DNA of 46,142 nucleotides, taken from the sequence record MZ997841.1. One strand, given 5' to 3'. Positions 2,475 through 11,455 of this stretch are shown one piece after another (within the stretch, counting starts at the first letter, position 1; every line of letters begins with the position of its first letter). The notes under the pieces are model-generated. The model was given only the letters and a program-made list of their open reading frames with translations, searched no databases and was not told the DNA's origin. The position numbers and the translations under genes were made by a program. This DNA comes from Escherichia phage ULINTec7.

Positions 2475-2600
2475 ATGAAACTATCGCCATCAACTAAAGG
2501 TCTTATTGCAGAACTTAAAGACTCTTTGAGGAATCCAATCATTTGGGCACTTATCTACATACCTTATGGTATCTACCTGTTTCACCTCATCACTGAGTAA
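2475..2600 (+). CDS. Hypothetical small membrane protein (41 aa)
   Basis: Hydrophobic stretch IWALIYIPYGIYLFHLI, SD-like AGAGG upstream. Confidence 0.3.
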   Translation: MKLSPSTKGLIAELKDSLRNPIIWALIYIPYGIYLFHLITE

Positions 2601-2633
2601 CTAGCCTATAGCCTGCCTGTGTGGGCTATGTGA

Positions 2634-2654
2634 TATTTACTTACACTATATAAG
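2634..2654 (+). promoter_or_regulatory. Weak phage-promoter-like sequence
   Basis: ATTTACTTACACTATATAAGG, a degenerate match to the consensus. Confidence 0.25.
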
Positions 2655-2663
2655 GTGACTATT

Positions 2664-3548
2664 ATGACTACTGAAAACACCCTTCTGTCTGTTCGTGAAG
2701 CTGCAACCGCTGAAATCAAGCAGCACTTAGACAATATCGGCACTTCTTACATCAAAGTTGGCGCTTGTCTGAATGAATTACGCGGTGATTTCGAAGGTCA
2801 AAAAGACTTTTTAGCTTATGTAGAATCAGAGTTCGGCATCAAGAAGGCACAATGCTACAAGCTGATGAGTGTAGCCCGTGTCTTTGAAGGAGACGAACGC
2901 TTTAAAGGTGTGGCTATGCGTGTAATGCTGGCGCTTGTTCCTTTCGCTGATGAAAATATAATCATGGAGAAGGCCGCAGAACTCGCCGCAGATGGCAAGC
3001 TGGACACTAACGCCGTAAACGCCCTGATTGATCCTAAGAAAGAGACAAAGGCCGAGACGGTACAATCTAAGGCTGAGACAGTAAAACCGCAGGAGAACGC
3101 TACTGAGGCCGCAGAATCACAGGAAATGCAAGCGCCGCAGGTAGTTCCACCCGCTAGCGAGCAGGATGCCGACGAATCAGCACCGTGGGATGAGGAAAGC
3201 AAGCCGGAAGCGCCAAAGGCAGCGCCGCTGGATAACACGGCTAATACCGAAAACGCCGCTATATCTGGCCTACTGGCACAAATTAAGGCACTGACTGAGC
3301 AATTACAGGCAGCTAATGACCGCATCGCCTCCTTAAGTAGTGCACGCGAAAGCAAGAAGGCAGCCGCGCCTATGCTGCCGCAATTCAAATCTTCCTGCTT
3401 CTATGCTCGCTTAGGTTTAAGCGCTGAGGAGGCAACGAAGAAAACAGCAGTTAACAAGGCACGCCGCGAACTGGTTAAGCTAGGCTACGGTGAAGGCCAT
3501 GAAGCATGGCCCTTAATCTCTGAGGCAGTAGAAGAGTTGACTAAGTAA
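2664..3548 (+). CDS. Early protein of unknown function, in the slot occupied by kinase 0.7 in T7
   Basis: 294 aa from the ATG at 2664 (TAAGG 8 nt upstream); the ORF-track start at 2655 is a GTG. No kinase motifs seen. Has a central Ala/Glu/Pro/Lys-rich low-complexity linker. Confidence 0.6.
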   Translation: MTTENTLLSVREAATAEIKQHLDNIGTSYIKVGACLNELRGDFEGQKDFLAYVESEFGIKKAQCYKLMSVARVFEGDERFKGVAMRVMLALVPFADENIIMEKAAELAADGKLDTNAVNALIDPKKETKAETVQSKAETVKPQENATEAAESQEMQAPQVVPPASEQDADESAPWDEESKPEAPKAAPLDNTANTENAAISGLLAQIKALTEQLQAANDRIASLSSARESKKAAAPMLPQFKSSCFYARLGLSAEEATKKTAVNKARRELVKLGYGEGHEAWPLISEAVEELTK

Positions 3549-3611: not shown

Positions 3612-6239
3612 ATGCAAGACCTACACGCTATTCAACTTCAACTTGAAGAAGAAATGTTTAACGGCGGTATCCGTCGCTTTGAAGCGGACCAACAACGCCA
3701 GATTGCATCCGGTAATGAATCAGACACGGCATGGAATCGCCGCTTATTGTCCGAGTTAATCGCGCCAATGGCTGAAGGTATTCAGGCATACAAGGAAGAG
3801 TATGAAGGTAAAAGAGGCCGTGCACCACGTGCATTAGCTTTCATTAACTGCGTAGGGAATGAAGTAGCAGCATATATCACCATGAAAATCGTTATGGATA
3901 TGCTGAATACAGACGTTACCTTACAAGCCATCGCTATGAATGTAGCCGACCGAATCGAGGACCAAGTACGTTTTAGCAAGCTGGAAGGTCACGCAGCTAA
4001 GTACTTTGAGAAAGTGAAGAAGTCGCTTAAGGCTAGCAAGACTAAATCTTATCGTCATGCGCACAACGTAGCGGTAGTAGCTGAGAAGTCTGTTGCTGAC
4101 CGTGACGCGGATTTCTCCCGTTGGGAGGCATGGCCTAAAGACACCTTGTTGCAAATAGGCATGACCTTGCTAGAAATCTTGGAGAATAGCGTATTCTTCA
4201 ATGGTCAACCTGTCTTCCTTCGTACCTTGCGCACTAACGGCGGAAAGCATGGTGTTTACTATTTACAGACCAGTGAACATGTTGGCGAGTGGATAACTGC
4301 ATTTAAGGAACATGTAGCGCAGCTCAGCCCTGCCTATGCACCTTGCGTTATACCTCCCCGCCCTTGGGTATCACCTTTTAACGGCGGTTTCCACACTGAG
4401 AAAGTAGCAAGCCGTATTCGTCTGGTAAAAGGAAACCGCGAACACGTCCGCAAGCTGACCAAAAAGCAAATGCCAGCGGTTTACAAGGCTGTTAACGCTT
4501 TGCAGGCGACTAAGTGGCAGGTTAATAAAGAAGTTTTGCAGGTAGTAGAGGACGTTATCCGTCTCGACCTTGGTTATGGTGTACCTTCCTTTAAACCACT
4601 CATCGACCGCGAAAACAAACCAGCTAATCCGGTGCCGCTAGAATTTCAGCACCTGCGAGGCCGTGAACTGAAAGAGATGCTAACGCCGGAACAGTGGCAA
4701 TCCTTCATTAACTGGAAAGGTGAATGCACCAAGCTGTACACCGCAGAAACTAAGCGTGGCAGCAAGTCGGCGGCTACGGTCCGCATGGTTGGTCAGGCCC
4801 GTAAATATAGCCAGTTCGACGCAATCTACTTCGTGTATGCACTGGACAGCCGCAGCCGTGTATATGCGCAATCTAGCACGCTCTCACCGCAATCAAACGA
4901 CTTAGGCAAGGCACTCCTACGGTTTACCGAAGGGCAGCGCCTTGATAGCTCTGAGGCGCTTAAATGGTTTTTGGTGAACGGGGCTAATAACTGGGGTTGG
5001 GATAAGAAAACTTTCGACGTGCGCACCGCTAACGTGTTAGATGGTGAATTCCAAGACATGTGCCGCGACATTGCAGCGGATCCTCTGACCTTCACTCAAT
5101 GGGTAAATGCCGACTCCCCTTACGGCTTCCTTGCTTGGTGCTTTGAATATGCGCGTTATCTGGATGCACTGGATGAAGGCACGCAAGACCAATTCATGAC
5201 GCACCTCCCAGTCCATCAAGATGGTAGTTGTTCTGGTATCCAGCACTACAGTGCTATGCTACGCGATGCAGTAGGTGCGAAAGCGGTAAACCTTAAGCCC
5301 TCTGACTCCCCTCAAGATATTTATGGTGCCGTTGCGCAGGTAGTAATTCAGAAGAATTATGCATACATGAATGCAGAGGATGCGGAAACCTTCACTTCTG
5401 GCAGCGTGACTTTAACAGGTGCAGAACTTCGTAGCATGGCTAGTGCGTGGGATATGATAGGAATCACTCGCGGCCTGACCAAAAAGCCTGTAATGACACT
5501 ACCTTATGGCAGCACACGTCTAACCTGCCGTGAATCAGTGATTGATTATATCGTTGATTTGGAAGAAAAAGAGGCCCAACGGGCTATTGCGGAAGGGCGT
5601 ACCGCCAATCCTGTACATCCTTTTGATAATGACCGCAAAGACAGCCTGACACCTAGCGCAGCTTATAACTATATGACAGCTTTAATCTGGCCTTCTATTT
5701 CGGAAGTGGTTAAAGCTCCTATAGTGGCAATGAAAATGATTCGTCAGCTTGCACGTTTCGCAGCTAAAAGAAACGAAGGCTTAGAATATCCCTTACCAAC
5801 TGGCTTCATCTTGCAACAAAAGATAATGGCTACCGATATGCTCCGCGTATCCACTTGCTTGATGGGTGAAATCAAGATGAGTCTCCAGATTGAAACAGAT
5901 GTAGTTGATGAAACGGCAATGATGGGTGCGGCTGCTCCTAACTTCGTCCATGGTCACGATGCTAGCCACCTGATTCTGACTGTATGTGACCTAGTGGATA
6001 AAGGTATTACATCCATTGCAGTCATCCATGATTCTTTCGGTACTCATGCAGGACGTACCGCAGACCTGCGGGATAGCTTAAGGGAAGAAATGGTTAAGAT
6101 GTATCAAAACCATAATGCCCTGCAAAACCTGCTAGATGTGCACGAAGAGCGTTGGTTAGTAGACACCGGAATCCAAGTACCAGAGCAAGGAGAGTTTGAC
6201 CTTAACGAAATCTTAGTTTCAGACTATTGTTTCGCATAA
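3612..6239 (+). CDS. Single-subunit DNA-dependent RNA polymerase (T7/SP6 type)
   Basis: 875 aa with [16 protein letters not shown] and [13 protein letters not shown] motifs matching the T7 RNAP catalytic region. Confidence 0.97.
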
Positions 6240-6313
6240 TATTAATAGGCCATTCCTTAGGGAGTGGCCTTTTTCTTTACCTACTACCTGTAACATTTCA
6301 TTAACATAAAAGT

Positions 6314-6329
6314 GTCTCACATGTGAGAC
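6314..6329. promoter_or_regulatory. Conserved palindrome GTCTCACATGTGAGAC, copy 1
   Basis: Perfect 16-bp palindrome immediately 5' of the promoter at 6331. Confidence 0.6.
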
Positions 6330-6330
6330 T

Positions 6331-6352
6331 TATTTACCGGACACTATAGGAT
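6331..6352 (+). promoter_or_regulatory. Phage-RNAP promoter
   Basis: TATTTACCGGACACTATAGGATAG matches the consensus. Confidence 0.7.
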
Positions 6353-6500
6353 AGCCGTCGGAGACGGGAAAGAAAGGGAAGATAAAGGATATAAAGGAAG
6401 TAATAGGTATTAAAGGTTATATAGGTTATCTAGGAATACCTAGGAATACCTATTACCTTCTTCCTTCCTCTTATTACCACTTAGAGGAAGGGCAGACCTA
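6353..6500. promoter_or_regulatory. AT-rich dyad-symmetric region, candidate primary replication origin
   Basis: Purine-rich arm at 6366-6411 and complementary pyrimidine-rich arm at 6445-6478, with direct repeat TAGGAATACC x2 at 6431-6450. Lies between two promoter copies just downstream of the RNAP gene, the position of the T7 primary origin. Confidence 0.45.
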
Positions 6501-6503
6501 GGT

Positions 6504-6520
6504 TGTCTCACATGTGAGAC
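6504..6520. promoter_or_regulatory. Conserved palindrome TGTCTCACATGTGAGAC, copy 2
   Basis: Same palindrome as at 6314, followed by a promoter-like sequence. Confidence 0.6.
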
Positions 6521-6522
6521 TT

Positions 6523-6547
6523 CGTATTTACCGGACAGTATAGATAA
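6523..6547 (+). promoter_or_regulatory. Phage-promoter-like sequence (degenerate: ACAGTATAGATAAG)
   Basis: GTATTTACCGGACAGTATAGATAAG differs from the consensus in the conserved CACTATAGAAG core. Confidence 0.35.
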
Positions 6548-6573
6548 GACTAACTTACTTTGGAGATTTAACC

Positions 6574-6711
6574 ATGCGTAACGTAGAAAAGATTACCCGT
6601 AGAAGCCGTCATGAGTGCGATGTAGATATTAGCACCCTTAAGAATCGTGCCAAAAAGTGGGTACAACAACGCGGCGGTGTCAATCGTAATATGAAACGTA
6701 ATTGGAACTAA
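6574..6711 (+). CDS. Small basic protein (45 aa), T7 gp1.1-like
   Basis: Hand-translated MRNVEKITRRSRHECDVDISTLKNRAKKWVQQRGGVNRNMKRNWN resembles recalled T7 gp1.1 (MRNFEKMTKRSNRN...). Confidence 0.5.
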   Translation: MRNVEKITRRSRHECDVDISTLKNRAKKWVQQRGGVNRNMKRNWN

Positions 6712-6721
6712 AGGGCAGACC

Positions 6722-7875
6722 ATGGCTATTATTAATAACATCCCATGTCCTCAATGTCAGAAGAATGGACACGATAAATCAGGCAACCACCTTATGATAT
6801 TCGAGGATGGTGCTGGGTACTGTAACCGTGGTCACTTCCATGATAATGGCAGACCTTACTACCATAAGCCTGAAGGGGGCATCGAGATAACCGAGTTGCC
6901 TATTACTGGCAATATCAAATATACACCTTCCCAGTTTAAAGAGATGGAGAAGGAAGGGAAGATTAGCGACCCTAAGCTACGCGCCATCGCACTTGGTGGT
7001 ATGCGTATGAAAGACCGTTGGGAGGTTATGAATGAGCAAGAAAGGGCAGACCAAGAAACAGAGTGGAAACTTGATGTTGAATGGTTCCTCACGCTTAAGC
7101 GTAAGAATCTTGTTTCCCGACACATTCGCGGCGACATTTGCGCATTGTATGATGTACGGGTCGGACACGATGAAGAAGGTAGAGTCTCACGGCATTACTA
7201 TCCACGCTTCGAAAAATGTGAGCTAGTAGGCGCTAAGTGTCGCACATTACCTAAAGACTTTAAGTTTGGTCATTTAGGTAAACTATTTGGTATGCAAGAT
7301 CTTTTCGGTATGAATACTTTGTCTCACGTGTTAGACAAGGGAAGACGAAAGGATTGCTTGCTTATTGTCGGCGGCGAACTGGATGCACTAGCAGCACAGC
7401 AAATGCTCCTTGATTCTGCCAAGGGTACTAAGTGGGAAGGCCAGCCTTACCATGTATGGTCTGTCAATAAAGGTGAGTCTTGCCTTGAAGAGATAGTACA
7501 GAACCGTGAACACATCGCCCAATTTAAGAAGATTATATGGGGTTTTGATGGAGATGAGGTAGGGCAGAAGCAGAATCAGCAAGCGGCTCGCCTGTTTCCT
7601 GGCAAATCCTATATCCTTGAGTACCCTTCTGGTTGCAAAGATGCCAACAAGGCATTGATGGCTGGCAAGGCTAAAGAGTTTGTTGATGCATGGTTTAATG
7701 CCAAGTCATCTGATGAAGTCTTTGGTAGCCAGATTAAATCTATCGCATCTCAAAGGGATAAGCTCAAGGCTGCACGTCCAGAGCAAGGACTATCATGGCC
7801 TTGGCCTAAGCTGAACAAGGTAACGCTAGGTATTCGTAAGAACCAACTTATCATTGTAGGCGCAGGCTCTGGCGT
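6722..7875 (+). CDS. DNA primase-helicase, exon 1 (zinc ribbon, TOPRIM, start of helicase Walker A)
   Basis: CPQC...C..GHFH zinc ribbon and LLIVGGELDALAAQQ TOPRIM resemble T7 gp4. The ORF continues to ...LIIVGAGSGV and then runs into a stop at 7895-7897 within inserted sequence; the proposed exon ends at 7875. Confidence 0.7.
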
Positions 7876-8662
7876 TAACATTAGCGCCGCCATGTAGTAA
7901 TACATGGGCAATAATCGTGTGAACTCAGGGGAAGACTAGAACAGTTAATCCTGAGCCAAGCTAGGCACACCTCAAATTCAAAGGAGGTGTTATGCAATTT
8001 AAAGAAGTACCAGATCACAGTAATTATATTTGTTATGAGAATGGCACGGTTGTTAATCGTAAGACTGGAAAGGTCTTGAAAGAAGATACAACTAACCGAG
8101 GTTATAAGCGGATTACAGTAAGCAAGGGCAACAAGGTAACACGTTGGAGTGTGCACCGTTTAGTTGCTTTACTGTTTATCCCTAACCCTCATAATTATGA
8201 AACTGTTAATCACATATCGGGAGATAAGACGGATAACTCTGTTAGTAATCTTGAGTGGATGAGCCAAGAACAGAACCAAGCCCATGCTAAATATACAGGA
8301 CTGTGTCCTAAAGGTGAGGCTGTTGGCACTAATAAGTTCAAAGAGGCAACTATTCATCAAGTGTGCAAGCTAATAGAGAAAGGTTTATCTCGCGGTGAAA
8401 TTATGAAAGCAACGAGCATCTCTAAAGCAACCTTTGATGACATTCGTAGAAGGAAGACTTGGAAGCACGTATCTTGTTCATATAAATGGTGACAATCTGG
8501 TGTGCCTAGAAGGTGCAACGACTATCCCGAAAGGGAGTACAGCCAAGCGGCTGGAAGCGCACGACACCCATCGTGGGTGATGATATAGTCTGGTCTATAT
8601 GGGGACATATAGCAGTTCATAAGAGAACGGGCGTGGCTTAGCGAACCACGTCGAACATAACG
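7876..8662 (+). mobile_element. Putative group I intron carrying an HNH homing endonuclease ORF, inserted in the helicase Walker A codons
   Basis: The 5' exon ends in U (7875) and the insert ends in G (8662). Exon 3' end GGCGU can pair with intron GCGCC at 7884-7888 (P1 with a U.G wobble). The downstream frame opens right after a stop at 8658-8660 with GKTEF and no start codon. Joining gives the contiguous P-loop GAGSGVGKTEF. Confidence 0.6.
7992..8492 (+). CDS. HNH homing endonuclease (intron-encoded)
   Basis: 166 aa with HRLVALLFIPNP...VNHISGDKTDNSVSNLEW, a typical HNH/AP2-type motif; AGGAGG SD upstream; a paralog of the ORF at 10976. Confidence 0.85.
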   Translation: MQFKEVPDHSNYICYENGTVVNRKTGKVLKEDTTNRGYKRITVSKGNKVTRWSVHRLVALLFIPNPHNYETVNHISGDKTDNSVSNLEWMSQEQNQAHAKYTGLCPKGEAVGTNKFKEATIHQVCKLIEKGLSRGEIMKATSISKATFDDIRRRKTWKHVSCSYKW

Positions 8663-9497
8663 AGGTAAGACTGAGTTCCTTCGTGAAGTAGTTAAGCACC
8701 TCATTGAAGAACACGGTGAATCTGTAGGCATCATTTCTACAGAAGACCCGATGGTCAAGGTGTCCCGTGCTTTTATCGGCAAGTGGATTGATAAGCGTAT
8801 TGAGTTACCGCCAACCAACGACCCGAAAGAAGATGGATACCGTGAGGTGTTCGACTACACCGAGGAAGAAGCTAACGCCGCCATTGATTATGTAGCTGAT
8901 ACAGGTAAGCTGTTTGTGGCTGACCTAGAGGGTGACTATTCGATGGAAAAGGTAGAGCAAACTTGCCTAGAGTTTGAGGCTATGGGCATTTCTAATATCA
9001 TCATTGATAACTTAACGGGGATTAAATTAGATGAGCGTGCTTTTGGTGGGAAGGTTGGTGCACTTGATGAATGCGTCAAGCGGATTGGTACTATCAAAGA
9101 CCGACACCCGGTTACTATATTCCTTGTATCACACCTTACACGTCCTCCGGCAAACCGTACCCAACATGAAGAAGGTGGCGAAGTTATCCTTTCTGACTTC
9201 CGAGGCTCAGGCGCTATCGGATTCTGGGCATCTTACGCCTTGGGGATTGAGCGTAATACAAGAGCTGAAACGCTTGACGAAAGGACTACCACGTACATCT
9301 CATGTGTCAAAGACCGCGACCAAGGTATCTGGACTGGAACCAAGGTCATGCTTAAGGGTGACATTCAAACCGGACGTTTAATGGAACCACAAGCCCGTAC
9401 TAAGTCATTTGATACAGGTGAAGCAAGGCAACAAGAAGTGCCGGATTTACCGGACACTATAGAAGAGACAACCTTTGACGATGAACAGGAGTTTTAA
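8663..9497 (+). CDS. DNA primase-helicase, exon 2 (helicase RecA-like domain)
   Basis: Frame reads GKTEFLREVV... from 8663, through the ORF-track ATG at 8751, to DDEQEF. FLVSHLTRP and SDFRGSGAIGF...LGIERN resemble T7 gp4 helicase motifs. Exon 1 plus exon 2 is 1989 nt, a 662-aa product. Confidence 0.7.
9445..9467 (+). promoter_or_regulatory. Phage-RNAP promoter inside the helicase 3' coding region
   Basis: ATTTACCGGACACTATAGAAGAG matches the consensus. Confidence 0.65.
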
Positions 9498-9658
9498 TGG
9501 AAATTATTAAACCAGTATTGAATATCGGTATTGAGATCCTATTCATGCTTGTGATCGCAGATTATGCTGCACGATATGGATTCAAGAAAGCTGTGAAACT
9601 TATCGTTGCATCTGGTTTTCTTATGTCAATGTTCTTTATTGTAACACGCCTTATCTAG
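9497..9658 (+). CDS. Hypothetical small membrane protein (53 aa)
   Basis: ATG overlaps the helicase stop (TAATG); hydrophobic segments present. Confidence 0.35.
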   Translation: MEIIKPVLNIGIEILFMLVIADYAARYGFKKAVKLIVASGFLMSMFFIVTRLI

Positions 9659-9671
9659 TGTATTTATCAGG

Positions 9672-9695
9672 GCTTGTCTCACATGTGAGACAGGC
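9672..9695. promoter_or_regulatory. Conserved palindromic hairpin GCTTGTCTCACATGTGAGACAGGC, copy 3
   Basis: Extended 11-bp stem around the 16-bp core, located at a gene end. Confidence 0.6.
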
Positions 9696-9730
9696 TCTTA
9701 TTAAGTACATTAAATAACTGGAGATTGATT

Positions 9731-10908: not shown

Positions 10909-11016
10909 ATGAATAACTACGACTCTGATTGGGATTTCTACGATTCAATGCAATCTAAACCAGAAAGGAGGGAGGATGAGTTCGAAACAGATCAAATGTA
11001 CGAGGATTTTTACTAA
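10909..11016 (+). CDS. Hypothetical small acidic protein (35 aa)
   Basis: Short ORF that overlaps the start of the HNH gene; weak call. Confidence 0.2.
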   Translation: MNNYDSDWDFYDSMQSKPERREDEFETDQMYEDFY

Positions 11017-11455
11017 CTACATCCTCTACTCTGATGGTCGAGTTCTTAACGAGAAAACCGGACAATATCTAAGAGGTTACTTAGATAAAGATGGGTATCA
11101 TATTATGAATATTAAAGGGAAACACCTTAAAGTTCATCGATTAGTTGCTATCCATTTCATACCTAACCCTAATAATTTACCTGAAGTTAACCATAAAGAT
11201 CATGACCGTCTAAACAATAATGATTGGAATCTAGAGTGGTGTACTCATCAAGATAACAACAAGCATAGCTTACATTTAGTAATAGCTTCTTGTGCTAAAC
11301 GCTATGACTTTATATCACCACAAGGTGTCCATGTAGAAGTCTATAACTTACGTGAGTTTTGTAGGAATAACAACCTACAGCAATCTCATATGGTTAAGGT
11401 GGCTAAAGGTAAAGTAAGACATCATAAAGGTTGGACTAATTATGCTAGATGTTGA
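10976..11455 (+). CDS. HNH homing endonuclease (free-standing)
   Basis: 159 aa with HRLVAIHFIPNP...VNHKDHDRLNNNDWNLEW; AGGAGGGAGG SD; paralog of the intron ORF at 7992. Confidence 0.85.
   Translation: MSSKQIKCTRIFTNYILYSDGRVLNEKTGQYLRGYLDKDGYHIMNIKGKHLKVHRLVAIHFIPNPNNLPEVNHKDHDRLNNNDWNLEWCTHQDNNKHSLHLVIASCAKRYDFISPQGVHVEVYNLREFCRNNNLQQSHMVKVAKGKVRHHKGWTNYARC

What the first reader, a model, noticed from the sequence alone, without database searches (positions are those of the whole stretch)
7876..8662. Primase-helicase gene interrupted inside its Walker A P-loop by a putative HNH-encoding group I intron
The primase ORF reads ...LIIVGAGSGV and then runs into a stop. About 790 nt downstream, the helicase frame opens directly after a stop codon with GKTEFLREVV and has no start codon before the P-loop lysine. 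Joining 7875 to 8663 restores a canonical contiguous P-loop GAGSGVGKTEF (T7 gp4 has SGSGMGKSTF) and a 662-aa primase-helicase. The junction obeys group I rules: the exon ends in U, the insert ends in G, and exon GGCGU can pair with intronic GCGCC at 7884-7888 as a P1 helix. The insert carries an HNH endonuclease ORF with its own SD. Insertion in the most conserved codons of an essential gene is the hallmark of intron homing.
Basis: partly seen in the sequence, partly recalled or inferred. Interest (0 to 1): 0.85.

Follow-up and report, generated by a model that had tools for sequence, protein, structure and literature searches.

The report
Mobile self-splicing intron splitting primase-helicase gene
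The phage's essential primase-helicase gene is interrupted, inside the codons of its ATP-binding loop, by a 787-base Twort-type group I intron that carries its own HNH homing endonuclease; this is a real but ordinary kind of phage mobile element, at an insertion site I could not find described in the literature.

Summary
Window 7876-8662 (787 nt) is an insertion that about 120 related Vectrevirus (K1-5/K1E-like) genomes lack. Removing it gives a 662-aa primase-helicase that is 98% identical to K1-5 gp9, without gaps, with an intact Walker A motif GAGSGVGKT.

The insert is a group I intron of subgroup IA2, the Twort/T4-td type.
- P1 has the U·G wobble at the 5' splice site, and the intron ends in G.
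- In an alignment of 9 homologous introns, 96% of the proposed base-pair cells are paired and 28 of 58 pairs show compensatory changes.
- The P7 strands are identical to those of the Twort orf142 intron, which its GenBank record annotates as a group I intron.
- The Rfam score (37 bits, E = 1e-7) is below the family threshold of 50. This fits the 501-nt endonuclease ORF (HNH_3 domain, I-HmuI homologue) sitting in the P6a loop.

The same intron sits at the same site in phage ULINTec6, in Klebsiella phage vB_Kp_Z1 and in two metagenomic contigs. Sister introns interrupt other conserved motifs of primase-helicase, DNA polymerase and RNA polymerase genes.

A recombination breakpoint within 18 nt of the intron suggests natural mobility.

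Splicing and cleavage were not tested.

Verdict: a new member of a known kind, of modest interest.

The parts
6722..7875 (+). Exon 1 of the primase-helicase gene (zinc finger, Toprim primase, linker, first half of Walker A ...GAGSGV, ending in the first two bases GT of the Val codon)
   Evidence: ORF list and Pfam Toprim_2. Collinear with K1-5 gp9 residues 1-385.
7876..8662 (+). Group I intron, subgroup IA2 (Twort type), 787 nt
   Evidence: Exact indel against K1-5 and about 120 relatives. RF00028 hit with E = 1.4e-7. Covariation analysis. Fold of the ORF-less version has z = -6.2.
7871..7888 (+). P1: exon GGCGU (7871-7875) paired with the internal guide GCGCC (7884-7888). U7875·G7884 is the wobble at the 5' splice site. 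The loop is UAACAUUA.
   Evidence: Read directly from the sequence. In 8 homologues the guide sequence changes with the exon and always keeps U·G.
7890..7907 (+). P2 hairpin CCAUGUA-GUAA-UACAUGG. It contains the in-frame stop UAG (7895-7897) that ends translation coming from exon 1.
   Evidence: P2 is replaced by different hairpins in KpZ1 and L021 and is absent in VL73, JSF38 and PPWS1.
7915..7957 (+). 5' half of the core: P3 5' strand (7915-7921), P4 (7924-7930 / 7949-7955), P5 (7934-7937 / 7943-7946), P6 5' strand (7956-7957)
7961..7971 (+). P6a 5' strand CUAGGCACACC. It pairs with 8499-8509 across the ORF.
   Evidence: Perfect 11-bp complement. Equivalent but different long-range pairs occur in every homologue.
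7967..7990 (+). Local hairpin ACACCUC / GAGGUGU that sequesters the Shine-Dalgarno sequence of the endonuclease ORF. It overlaps the P6a 5' strand by 5 nt.
   Evidence: Minimum-energy fold, -13.8 kcal/mol. A similar hairpin is predicted in KpZ1, VL73, JSF38 and Roth32; by eye the same pairing also fits L021 (sequence), not folded.
7992..8492 (+). Intron-encoded HNH homing endonuclease, 166 aa (HNH_3 nuclease domain plus C-terminal helix-turn-helix)
   Evidence: Pfam HNH_3 33.8 bits (cut-off 24.8) and HTH_7. I-HmuI, PDB 1U3E, E = 8.6e-12. 60% identical to the endonuclease of the same-site KpZ1 intron.
8499..8513 (+). P6a 3' strand GGUGUGCCUAG (8499-8509) and P6 3' strand GG (8512-8513)
8520..8590 (+). 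3' half of the catalytic core: P7 5' strand GACUAU (8520-8525), P7.1 (8526-8535), P7.2 (8540-8553), P3 3' strand (8558-8564), P8 (8565-8579), J8/7, P7 3' strand AUAGUC (8585-8590)
   Evidence: The best part of the Rfam alignment. Covariation in P3, P7.1, P7.2 and P8; P7 is invariant and identical to Twort.
8595..8662 (+). Peripheral 3' domain: P9 (8595-8612), P9.1 (8615-8628), P9.2 (8630-8652), 3' tail ...AACAUAACG with the terminal G8662
   Evidence: Six of the 7 P9.2 pairs show compensatory changes.
8663..9497 (+). Exon 2: the third base of the Val codon, then GKTEF... and the rest of the DnaB-like helicase domain
   Evidence: Pfam DnaB_C starts at residue 1 of this fragment. Collinear with K1-5 gp9 and T7 gp4.

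Best explanation
Window 7876-8662 is a mobile, self-splicing group I intron of subgroup IA2, the same family as the Staphylococcus phage Twort orf142 introns. It sits in the single-copy primase-helicase gene of a Vectrevirus (K1-5/K1E-like podovirus).

Proposed mechanism:
1. The gene is transcribed as one pre-mRNA. No phage promoter lies inside the intron (shown).
2. The RNA folds into P1-P9.2 (supported by covariation).
3. An external guanosine bound in P7 attacks after U7875, which is held in P1 by the guide GCGCC. The terminal G8662 then takes the G site, and the exons are ligated (inferred from family membership).
4. Ligation recreates the codon GU|A, the Walker A loop GAGSGVGKT and a 662-aa enzyme (shown conceptually).
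5. Ribosomes coming from exon 1 stop at UAG 7895-7897 inside P2, before the catalytic core (shown). Unspliced RNA can give only a 391-aa primase fragment, and no helicase with a P-loop.
6. The P6a loop carries an I-HmuI-like HNH endonuclease. Its Shine-Dalgarno sequence is predicted to be hidden in a hairpin (predicted).
7. In mixed infections the enzyme would nick intronless alleles near GGTGT|AGGTAAG. Repair from the intron-bearing genome would then copy in the intron and adjacent exon sequence, which is homing (inferred).
For: Precise insertion:
- The boundaries are exact to the base and the spliced protein is 98% identical to K1-5 gp9 with no gap.
- The spliced protein aligns through the P-loop of T7 gp4 structures.

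RNA structure:
- RF00028 hit with E = 1.4e-7 locally and 5e-6 over the whole window. It is the only RNA family hit in 46 kb.
- The ORF-less intron folds into P1, P2, P3, P4, P5, P6a, P7.1, P7.2, P8, P9, P9.1 and P9.2 at -112.4 kcal/mol, z = -6.2.
- In the alignment of 9 homologous introns, 96.4% of cells are paired, against 31-43% when the partners are slid.
- In that alignment 28 of 58 pairs change on both sides, and 0 of 500 shuffles reach any of the five measures.
- P1 keeps U·G and covaries with five different exon contexts. All homologues end in G.
- The 3' core matches 677 phage records, including Twort. Twort's three orf142 introns score 64-101 bits on RF00028.

Endonuclease:
- HNH_3 domain above the Pfam cut-off and an I-HmuI homologue.
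- Intron HNH enzymes of this type nick their targets and promote homing (PMC2988022).

No alternative way to express the helicase:
- The first in-frame start in exon 2 is 29 codons after the P-loop lysine.

Viability and spread:
- ULINTec6, an isolate propagated on E. coli APEC 45, carries the same insert at 99.9% identity.
- The intron is at the identical site in a different genus (Gajwadongvirus vB_Kp_Z1, 69% identical) and in IMG/VR contigs L017 and L021.

Mobility footprint:
- The window is 99.9% identical to ULINTec6 from 6309 to 8680, then 4-5% divergent from 8681.
- Its exon 2 equals that of intronless T147P1 (1 difference in 835).
Against: - No RNA data exist. Splicing, the ligated junction and endonuclease activity are all untested.
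- The Rfam score is 37.2 bits, below the gathering score of 50. I could not score an ORF-deleted version with Rfam to confirm that the ORF is the cause.
- P10 is weak: at best 3 pairs (GGU/AUU) after a mismatch. This was read from the sequence only.
- The recombination breakpoint next to the intron could come from ordinary mosaic recombination among Vectrevirus genomes rather than homing.
- The 9-sequence alignment was made after I removed the ORF loops by hand. The structure tested was derived from the window sequence, which favours it over the slid controls.
Confidence: 0.92

Rival explanations
1. A free-standing HNH homing-endonuclease cassette has split the gene into two separately translated genes (a 'fractured gene'). 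The primase and helicase halves would work as two polypeptides without RNA splicing. This is how the ULINTec6, vB_Kp_Z1 and VL73 GenBank records are annotated.
For: Database records annotate two 'primase/helicase' CDS flanking an HNH gene. Free-standing HNH genes do occur in this same window, for example 10976-11455.
Against: - The downstream frame has no start codon before 8751, so any separate product lacks the Walker A GKT.
- The 286 nt around the ORF form a covarying group I core that a simple cassette would not need.
- The boundaries obey the U·G and terminal-G rules and restore the reading frame exactly.
Confidence: 0.04
2. A decayed intron or inactivated gene. The insertion is real and of intron origin but no longer splices, and the phage gets by with a damaged gene or with a host helicase.
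For: The Rfam score is below the gathering threshold. P10 is weak.
Against: - All core helices are intact, and P7 and J8/7 are identical to the Twort intron, a group I intron scoring 97 bits on Rfam.
- The HNH ORF is intact.
- The window and ULINTec6 keep both exons open and under conservation.
- ULINTec6 is a propagated lytic isolate.
- T7-type primase-helicase is essential for this kind of phage (general knowledge).
Confidence: 0.03
3. An assembly artefact, chimera or intein.
For: None found.
Against: - The same insert occurs at the same base in an independent GenBank genome and, more diverged, in another genus and in metagenomes.
- In-frame stop codons (7895-7897 and 8658-8660) and the lack of any continuous ORF exclude an intein.
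Confidence: 0.01

Closest known systems
Staphylococcus phage Twort orf142 group I introns (subgroup IA2; GenBank AF132670)
   Same: - Same core architecture, including the P7.1/P7.2 insertion.
- Identical P7 strands GACUAU/AUAGUC and an identical J8/7 segment GAUAUAGUCU.
- The same type of P9 and the same ...AACAUAA..G 3' tail.
- 77% nucleotide identity over the 3' core.
   Different: - Different host gene (Twort: a structural gene annotated 'similar to Orf8 of Listeria phage A511') and different phage family (Herelleviridae).
- The Twort I2 intron used here has no ORF, whereas the window intron has a 166-aa HNH ORF in P6a.
- P4-P5 of Twort I2 aligns poorly with the window.
[quoted passage not shown]
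   Same: - Same host group (Autographiviridae).
- Same logic of insertion in a highly conserved motif of an essential replication gene.
- The PPWS1 and Roth32 introns belong to the same RNA family as the window intron and carry an ORF in P6a; Pfam was not run on those ORFs.
   Different: - Target gene and site: DNA polymerase ...SSSNP|NLQN... rather than the primase-helicase Walker A.
- The endonucleases are only distantly related.
- P2 is absent in PPWS1 and Roth32.
Klebsiella phage vB_Kp_Z1 (Gajwadongvirus) split primase/helicase, and Escherichia phage ULINTec6
   Same: - Identical insertion point: GGCGT|AGGTAAGACTGAG, protein G-x-G-x-G-V|G-K-T.
- Same architecture, including P2.
- HNH proteins of 166 aa, 60% identical for KpZ1.
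- The ULINTec6 intron is 99.9% identical.
   Different: - The KpZ1 intron is only 69% identical, with many compensatory helix changes.
- Both records annotate two CDS rather than a spliced gene.
- ULINTec6 has a different exon 2 haplotype and an extra HNH gene after the helicase.
I-HmuI (Bacillus phage SPO1 DNA polymerase intron; PDB 1U3E)
   Same: HNH nuclease domain with the N-terminal beta-sheet DNA-binding region, aligned over residues 1-105 with E = 8.6e-12. It is encoded in a phage group I intron. This family nicks one strand (PMC2988022).
   Different: The C-terminal DNA-binding part differs: the window protein matches HTH_7. The target sequence differs. Cleavage chemistry and position are untested here.
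Inteins in the P-loop of DnaB and MCM replicative helicases
   Same: A selfish element sits in the Walker A/P-loop of a replicative SF4 helicase and is removed after transcription to restore the motif (PMC4760082).
   Different: Inteins are removed at the protein level and are in frame. This element is removed at the RNA level, has in-frame stops and no intein motifs.

Membership tests
Group I intron (Rfam RF00028) | Covariance-model score at or above the curated gathering score (50 bits) | tested here: not met
   - 37.2 bits, E = 1.4e-7; no hit at gathering threshold.
- Relatives that carry an ORF also fall short: KZY1 42.4 and KpZ1 31.7 bits.
- The three Twort introns score 63.6-100.9 bits.
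- The shortfall is attributed to the roughly 530-nt ORF loop in P6a. An ORF-deleted construct could not be submitted to the Rfam tool.
Group I intron | Conserved core helices P3, P4, P5, P6, P7 and P8, including the P3/P7 pseudoknot | tested here: met
   All were located at stated coordinates. 96.4% of cells are paired across 9 homologues and 28 of 58 pairs have double changes. Slid controls give 31-43%. P7 is invariant, so it is uninformative for covariation, but it is identical to Twort.
Group I intron | P1 with a U·G wobble at the 5' splice site, formed by the exon end and an internal guide sequence | tested here: met
   GGCGU (7871-7875) pairs with GCGCC (7884-7888). In 8 homologues with 5 different exon contexts the guide changes to match the exon, and U·G is kept.
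Group I intron | Terminal guanosine at the 3' end of the intron | tested here: met
   G8662. All 9 homologues end in G at the boundary required by the reading frame.
Group I intron | P10 pairing between the 3' exon and the guide sequence | tested here: inconclusive
   At most 3 pairs (exon GGU 8664-8666 with AUU 7880-7882) after one mismatch, and the pairing is not conserved in KpZ1. This was read from the sequence only.
Group I intron | Guanosine-dependent self-splicing that yields ligated exons | not testable with these tools
   Needs RT-PCR or RNA-seq, or in vitro splicing.
Subgroup IA2 | Extra helices P7.1 and P7.2 between P7 and the 3' strand of P3 | tested here: met
   P7.1 is 8526-8535 and P7.2 is 8540-8553. 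Both covary: all 3 P7.1 pairs and 3 of the 5 P7.2 pairs have double changes. The subgroup definition itself is from my own knowledge.
HNH homing endonuclease (I-HmuI-like) | HNH nuclease domain above the Pfam threshold and homology to a characterised intron endonuclease | tested here: met
   HNH_3 33.8 bits against a cut-off of 24.8. I-HmuI 1U3E E = 8.6e-12 over residues 1-105.
HNH homing endonuclease (I-HmuI-like) | Site-specific nicking or cleavage of the intronless allele and homing in mixed infection | not testable with these tools
   There is only indirect support.
- A recombination breakpoint lies within 18 nt of the insertion site.
- The insertion site is shared across three phage lineages.
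Intein | Continuous in-frame ORF through the insert with splicing blocks | tested here: not met
   In-frame stops at 7895-7897 and 8658-8660.

The most novel reading that the evidence does not exclude
The window intron may be one snapshot of a single Twort-type intron lineage that has spread through T7/SP6-like phages by exchanging its endonuclease and guide sequence.

The lineage now occupies at least five conserved-motif sites in all three core nucleic-acid enzymes:
- the primase-helicase P-loop at GV|GK;
- the same P-loop 4 nt downstream, at MG|KS, in a Zobellviridae phage;
- the primase-helicase linker at FVDA|WW;
- DNA polymerase at SNP|NLQN;
- RNA polymerase at PV|MT.

Within this lineage, a conserved hairpin hides the endonuclease's Shine-Dalgarno sequence and competes with the long-range P6a helix. 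It might act as a switch that couples completion of intron folding and splicing to endonuclease translation.

The breakpoint 18 nt from the intron would then be a natural homing scar with one-sided co-conversion.
Probability: 0.3. Interest if true: 0.45.

Novelty: new member of a known kind. Interest (0 to 1): 0.33.

Why it matters
Practical use:
- Annotation pipelines and GenBank records (ULINTec6, vB_Kp_Z1, VL73, JSF38, KZY1) report two 'primase/helicase' genes, or hypothetical proteins, where there is one spliced gene. This distorts gene counts, pangenomes and phylogenies of therapeutic K1 phages.
- The exact splice coordinates given here allow the annotation to be corrected.

Biological interest:
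- The finding adds the Walker A loop of a phage SF4 primase-helicase to the list of homing sites. This parallels the known preference of inteins for helicase P-loops.
- The window and ULINTec6 form a natural pair: the intron and exon 1 are 99.9% identical while exon 2 is divergent. This looks like a recent transfer event.

None of this changes the understanding of group I introns.

Tried and rejected
- **Rfam at gathering threshold over the whole window:** no hit. At E-value threshold only the one group I hit appears, so there is no second intron, for example next to the HNH gene at 10976.
- **Second Rfam hit at 7867-8229** (17.9 bits, E = 0.087): it aligns the true P1-P6 part but forces the rest into the ORF. 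I used it only as a pointer.
- **Literature:** four full-text searches for an intron in a primase-helicase gene, in Vectrevirus or in Autographiviridae found nothing on this site.
- **ULINTec6 paper:** a search for the name found the isolation paper, but it does not mention introns, HNH or primase.
- **Bonocora & Shub 2004:** not held in the library.
- **IMG/VR scan with the 5' junction pattern:** 8 loci returned, of which only L017 and L021 are real homologues; six are chance matches.
- **Promoters inside the intron:** none of SP6 type. Sigma-70-like matches are at or below chance.
- **Formal pair count:** P1, P2 and P6a were left out because MAFFT did not align these length-variable helices in register. 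They were checked sequence by sequence instead.
- **Twort I2:** it is misaligned in P4/P5 and P9.1/P9.2 of alignment A2, which slightly lowers the paired percentage.
- **Script sandbox:** several fetched loci did not reach it, so some comparisons were made through DNA alignment instead.
Full report
**Context**

The window is a Vectrevirus genome (Autographiviridae, Molineuxvirinae; K1-5/K1E/SP6-like). It encodes an 875-aa single-subunit RNA polymerase at 3612-6239 and carries SP6-type promoters. Its first 25 kb are about 95% identical to ULINTec6, ULINTec4, T147P1 and other Vectrevirus genomes, and no deposited record is identical to it.

**The observation**

- ORF 6722-7897 ends ...LIIVGAGSGVNISAAM*.
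- The helicase frame opens after the TAA at 8658-8660 with (R)GKTEFLREVV. It has no ATG, GTG or TTG before 8751.
- Joining 7875 to 8663 gives a 662-aa protein. It aligns with K1-5 gp9 at 649/662 identities and no gap.
- The spliced protein aligns with T7 gp4 crystal and cryo-EM chains straight through the P-loop.
- A three-way DNA alignment fixes the boundaries to the base: K1-5 ...TCTGGTGT|AGGTAAGACT, window ...TCTGGCGT|TAACA...ATAACG|AGGTAAGACT.
- Of 122 phage records matching the gene, all but one match in two pieces whose span is exactly 787 nt shorter. Only ULINTec6 holds the insert, at 99.9% identity.

**What the insert is**

The RNA has a complete group I architecture, which I located by hand and then tested.

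| Element | Sequence | Coordinates |
|---|---|---|
| P1 | GGCGU / GCGCC, U·G at the splice site | 7871-7875 / 7884-7888 |
| P2 | CCAUGUA-GUAA-UACAUGG | 7890-7907 |
| P3 | UCGUGUG / CGCACGA | 7915-7921 / 8558-8564 |
| P4 | CUCAGGG / UCCUGAG | 7924-7930 / 7949-7955 |
| P5 | GACU / AGUU | 7934-7937 / 7943-7946 |
| P6 | CC / GG | 7956-7957 / 8512-8513 |
| P6a | CUAGGCACACC / GGUGUGCCUAG, encloses the ORF | 7961-7971 / 8499-8509 |
| P7 | GACUAU / AUAGUC | 8520-8525 / 8585-8590 |
| P7.1 | CCC-GAAA-GGG | 8526-8535 |
| P7.2 | CAGCC-AAGC-GGCUG | 8540-8553 |
| P8 | CACCCA-UCG-UGGGUG | 8565-8579 |
| P9 | CUAUAUG-GGGA-CAUAUAG | 8595-8612 |
| P9.1 | GUUC / GAAC | 8615-8618 / 8625-8628 |
| P9.2 | GGCGUGG / CCACGUC | 8630-8636 / 8646-8652 |
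| Terminal G | G | 8662 |

With the ORF loop cut out, the minimum-energy fold reproduces every nested helix at -112.4 kcal/mol. Shuffled sequences average -80.4, giving z = -6.2.

Rfam's group I model hits 8329-8612 with 37.2 bits and E = 1.4e-7. The best-aligned parts are the classical R and S elements (GUGCAACGACUAU and GAUAUAGUCU). This is the only RNA-family hit in the whole window, but it is below the curated threshold of 50.

**Homologues and covariation**

The last 155 nt of the intron match 677 phage records. I fetched eight of these homologues and worked out their splice sites from P1 pairing and reading frames.

| Phage (locus) | Interrupted gene | Insertion site |
|---|---|---|
| vB_Kp_Z1 (L003) | primase-helicase | identical P-loop site |
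| KZY1 (L005, Zobellviridae) | primase-helicase | P-loop, 4 nt further downstream (MG\|KSE) |
| Erwinia VL73 (L004) | primase-helicase | about 60 codons upstream (FVDA\|WW) |
| Vibrio JSF38 (L006) | primase-helicase | about 60 codons upstream (FVDA\|WW) |
| Pectobacterium PPWS1 (L007) | DNA polymerase | SSSNP\|NLQNLP |
| Klebsiella Roth32 (L009) | DNA polymerase | site not placed in a named motif |
| Acinetobacter 4AB-P (L008) | T7-like RNA polymerase | KNPV\|MTYVYG |
| Staphylococcus Twort (L010) | orf142 | intron I2 |

In each homologue the internal guide matches its own exon and keeps the U·G pair, and each intron ends in G.

On an alignment of nine ORF-less introns (A2) I counted the proposed core structure, without P1, P2 and P6a, which MAFFT did not align in register.
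- 96.4% of 506 cells form standard pairs.
- 28 of 58 pairs show changes on both sides.
- The covariation score is 0.448, against 0.160 for shuffles (0 of 500 reach it).
- Sliding the 3' partners by 1-3 columns drops pairing to 31-43%.
- P3, P7.1, P7.2, P8, P9 and P9.2 carry the covariation. P7 is invariant.

P6a differs in sequence in every intron but is always complementary across the ORF. Examples are CUAGGCACACC/GGUGUGCCUAG here, AGAAGACAC/GUGUCUUCU in KpZ1 and ACUGAACAUC/GAUGUUCAGU in VL73.

The three Twort introns score 63.6-100.9 bits on RF00028. ORF-carrying relatives score 31.7-42.4, like the window. The sub-threshold score therefore fits the large P6a insertion rather than a defective core. 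I could not submit an ORF-deleted sequence to Rfam to prove this.

The P7.1/P7.2 pair places the intron in subgroup IA2 (the subgroup definition is from my own knowledge).

**The ORF**

ORF 7992-8492 (166 aa) has an AAGGAGG Shine-Dalgarno sequence.
- It matches Pfam HNH_3 (33.8 bits, cut-off 24.8) and a C-terminal HTH_7.
- It matches I-HmuI, the intron endonuclease of Bacillus phage SPO1 (PDB 1U3E, E = 8.6e-12).
- It is 60% identical to the endonuclease of the same-site KpZ1 intron.
- It is only 31% identical to that of VL73, whose intron sits at another site, and 30% to the window's own free-standing HNH at 10976-11455.

According to the T4 mobile-element review, HNH intron enzymes such as I-HmuI nick one strand and still drive high-frequency inheritance. 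The same review reports that intron endonucleases are commonly held down by RNA structures that sequester the ribosome-binding site (PMC2988022).

Here 7967-7973 (ACACCUC) pairs with 7984-7990 (GAGGUGU), covering the Shine-Dalgarno sequence.
- The hairpin is the minimum-energy fold at -13.8 kcal/mol.
- Equivalent hairpins are predicted in KpZ1, VL73, JSF38 and Roth32; by eye the same pairing also fits L021 (sequence), which I did not fold.
- In four of those five folded sequences (all but Roth32) the hairpin overlaps the P6a 5' strand, so the two pairings would compete. A regulatory role is inference only.

**How it most likely works**

No SP6-type promoter lies inside the intron; the nearest are at 2389 and 9445. 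The gene, intron and endonuclease ORF are therefore on one transcript.

Translation from exon 1 runs 7 codons into the intron and stops at UAG 7895-7897, inside P2 and before the catalytic core. Splicing then follows the standard two-step guanosine-initiated pathway (inferred from family membership). It joins U7875 to A8663 and restores GU|A (Val) and GAGSGVGKT.

Unspliced RNA can yield a 391-aa primase fragment but no helicase with a P-loop. A functional primase-helicase therefore needs splicing, which is consistent with ULINTec6 being a propagated lytic isolate.

**Evidence of mobility**

The intron occupies the identical site in three lineages:
- Vectrevirus (the window and ULINTec6);
- Gajwadongvirus (KpZ1, plus IMG/VR contig L017);
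- a more distant SP6-like contig, L021.

Within Vectrevirus, the window and ULINTec6 differ at 2 of 2372 positions from 6309 to 8680. That tract covers exon 1, the intron and the first 18 nt of exon 2. From 8681 onwards they diverge by 4-5%.

The window's exon 2 is the haplotype of intronless T147P1 (1 difference in 835). Its exon 1 differs from T147P1 at 77 of 1154 positions. So a recombination junction lies within 18 nt downstream of the insertion site. Homing with one-sided co-conversion would produce this, but ordinary mosaic recombination cannot be excluded.

Near the junction, the only base that separates intron-bearing from all five intronless alleles examined is C7873 (GGC against GGT). 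It turns a U·G into a G-C pair in P1, and KpZ1 shares it.

**Rivals**

- *Split gene with two polypeptides*, as the database records are annotated. This is contradicted by the missing start codon, the split Walker A and the covarying ribozyme core.
- *Dead intron or pseudogene.* This is unlikely given the intact core, the intact ORF, the conserved exons and a viable isolate.
- *Intein or assembly artefact.* Both are excluded by in-frame stops and by independent occurrences.

**Comparison with what is known, and novelty**

Group I introns with HNH or GIY-YIG endonucleases in conserved motifs of essential phage genes are well established.
- T7-like PhiI/W31 DNA polymerase (Bonocora & Shub 2004; I saw only the citation).
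- A putative intron in K1F DNA polymerase (PMC4925675).
- LUZ24, with splicing confirmed by cDNA (PMC10914365).
- The Twort introns.

The ULINTec6 record already notes 'HNH homing endonuclease # Phage intron', although its isolation paper does not mention it.

I found no paper describing an intron in a primase-helicase gene or in Vectrevirus. The held library is incomplete, so this is weak evidence of absence.

Inteins are known to favour the P-loop of DnaB and MCM helicases (PMC4760082). The intron here is an RNA-level parallel.

I rate the finding as a new member of a known kind: correct, well supported, useful for annotation and of modest scientific surprise.

Noticed in passing
window 6309-8680 against 8681-9497: The window and ULINTec6 are 99.9% identical across gp8, exon 1, the intron and the first 18 nt of exon 2, then 4-5% divergent. 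The window's exon 2 equals that of intronless T147P1 (1 difference in 835). A recombination breakpoint therefore sits right at the intron's 3' edge.
   Followed up: yes
window 7967-7990: A hairpin ACACCUC/GAGGUGU hides the Shine-Dalgarno sequence of the HNH ORF and overlaps the P6a 5' strand. Equivalent hairpins are predicted in four related introns; by eye the pairing also fits L021. It could couple intron folding to endonuclease translation.
   Followed up: partly
window 10976-11455: A second, free-standing HNH endonuclease gene (HNH_3, 159 aa, 30% identical to the intron's enzyme) abuts and overlaps the start of the DNA polymerase gene (11442). Only 5 phage records hold it at full length, and K1-5 lacks it. 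No group I RNA signal is nearby.
   Followed up: partly
L001 4245-4736 (ULINTec6), corresponding to window about 9466-9700: ULINTec6 carries an additional putative HNH homing endonuclease directly after the primase-helicase gene, and its helicase C-terminus is replaced. The window has instead the short ORF 9497-9658, like K1E, ULINTec4 and EEc4.
   Followed up: no
L004 2478-3202, L006 1981-2706, L005 about 2476-3029, L008 about 1969-2729: Sister introns of the same RNA family interrupt other conserved sites.
- Primase-helicase at FVDA|WW (VL73, JSF38).
- The P-loop 4 nt downstream, at MG|KSE (KZY1, Zobellviridae).
- A T7-like RNA polymerase at KNPV|MTYVYG (Acinetobacter 4AB-P).

All are annotated in GenBank as separate or hypothetical genes.
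   Followed up: partly
window 6314-6329, 6505-6520 and about 9677-9692: The perfect palindrome GTCTCACATGTGAGAC recurs in intergenic regions flanking the primase-helicase gene. It is reported as terminator-like by the scan. It may be a processing or termination hairpin. Its function was not examined.
   Followed up: no
window 7217: A window-specific G-to-T change gives Cys instead of Gly (EKCELVG against EKGELVG) in the primase domain. All six compared relatives have G at this position.
   Followed up: no
window 7873: C (GGC) in the intron-bearing alleles (window, ULINTec6, KpZ1, L021) against T (GGT) in all five intronless Vectrevirus alleles examined. It strengthens P1 and might also affect endonuclease recognition.
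   Followed up: partly
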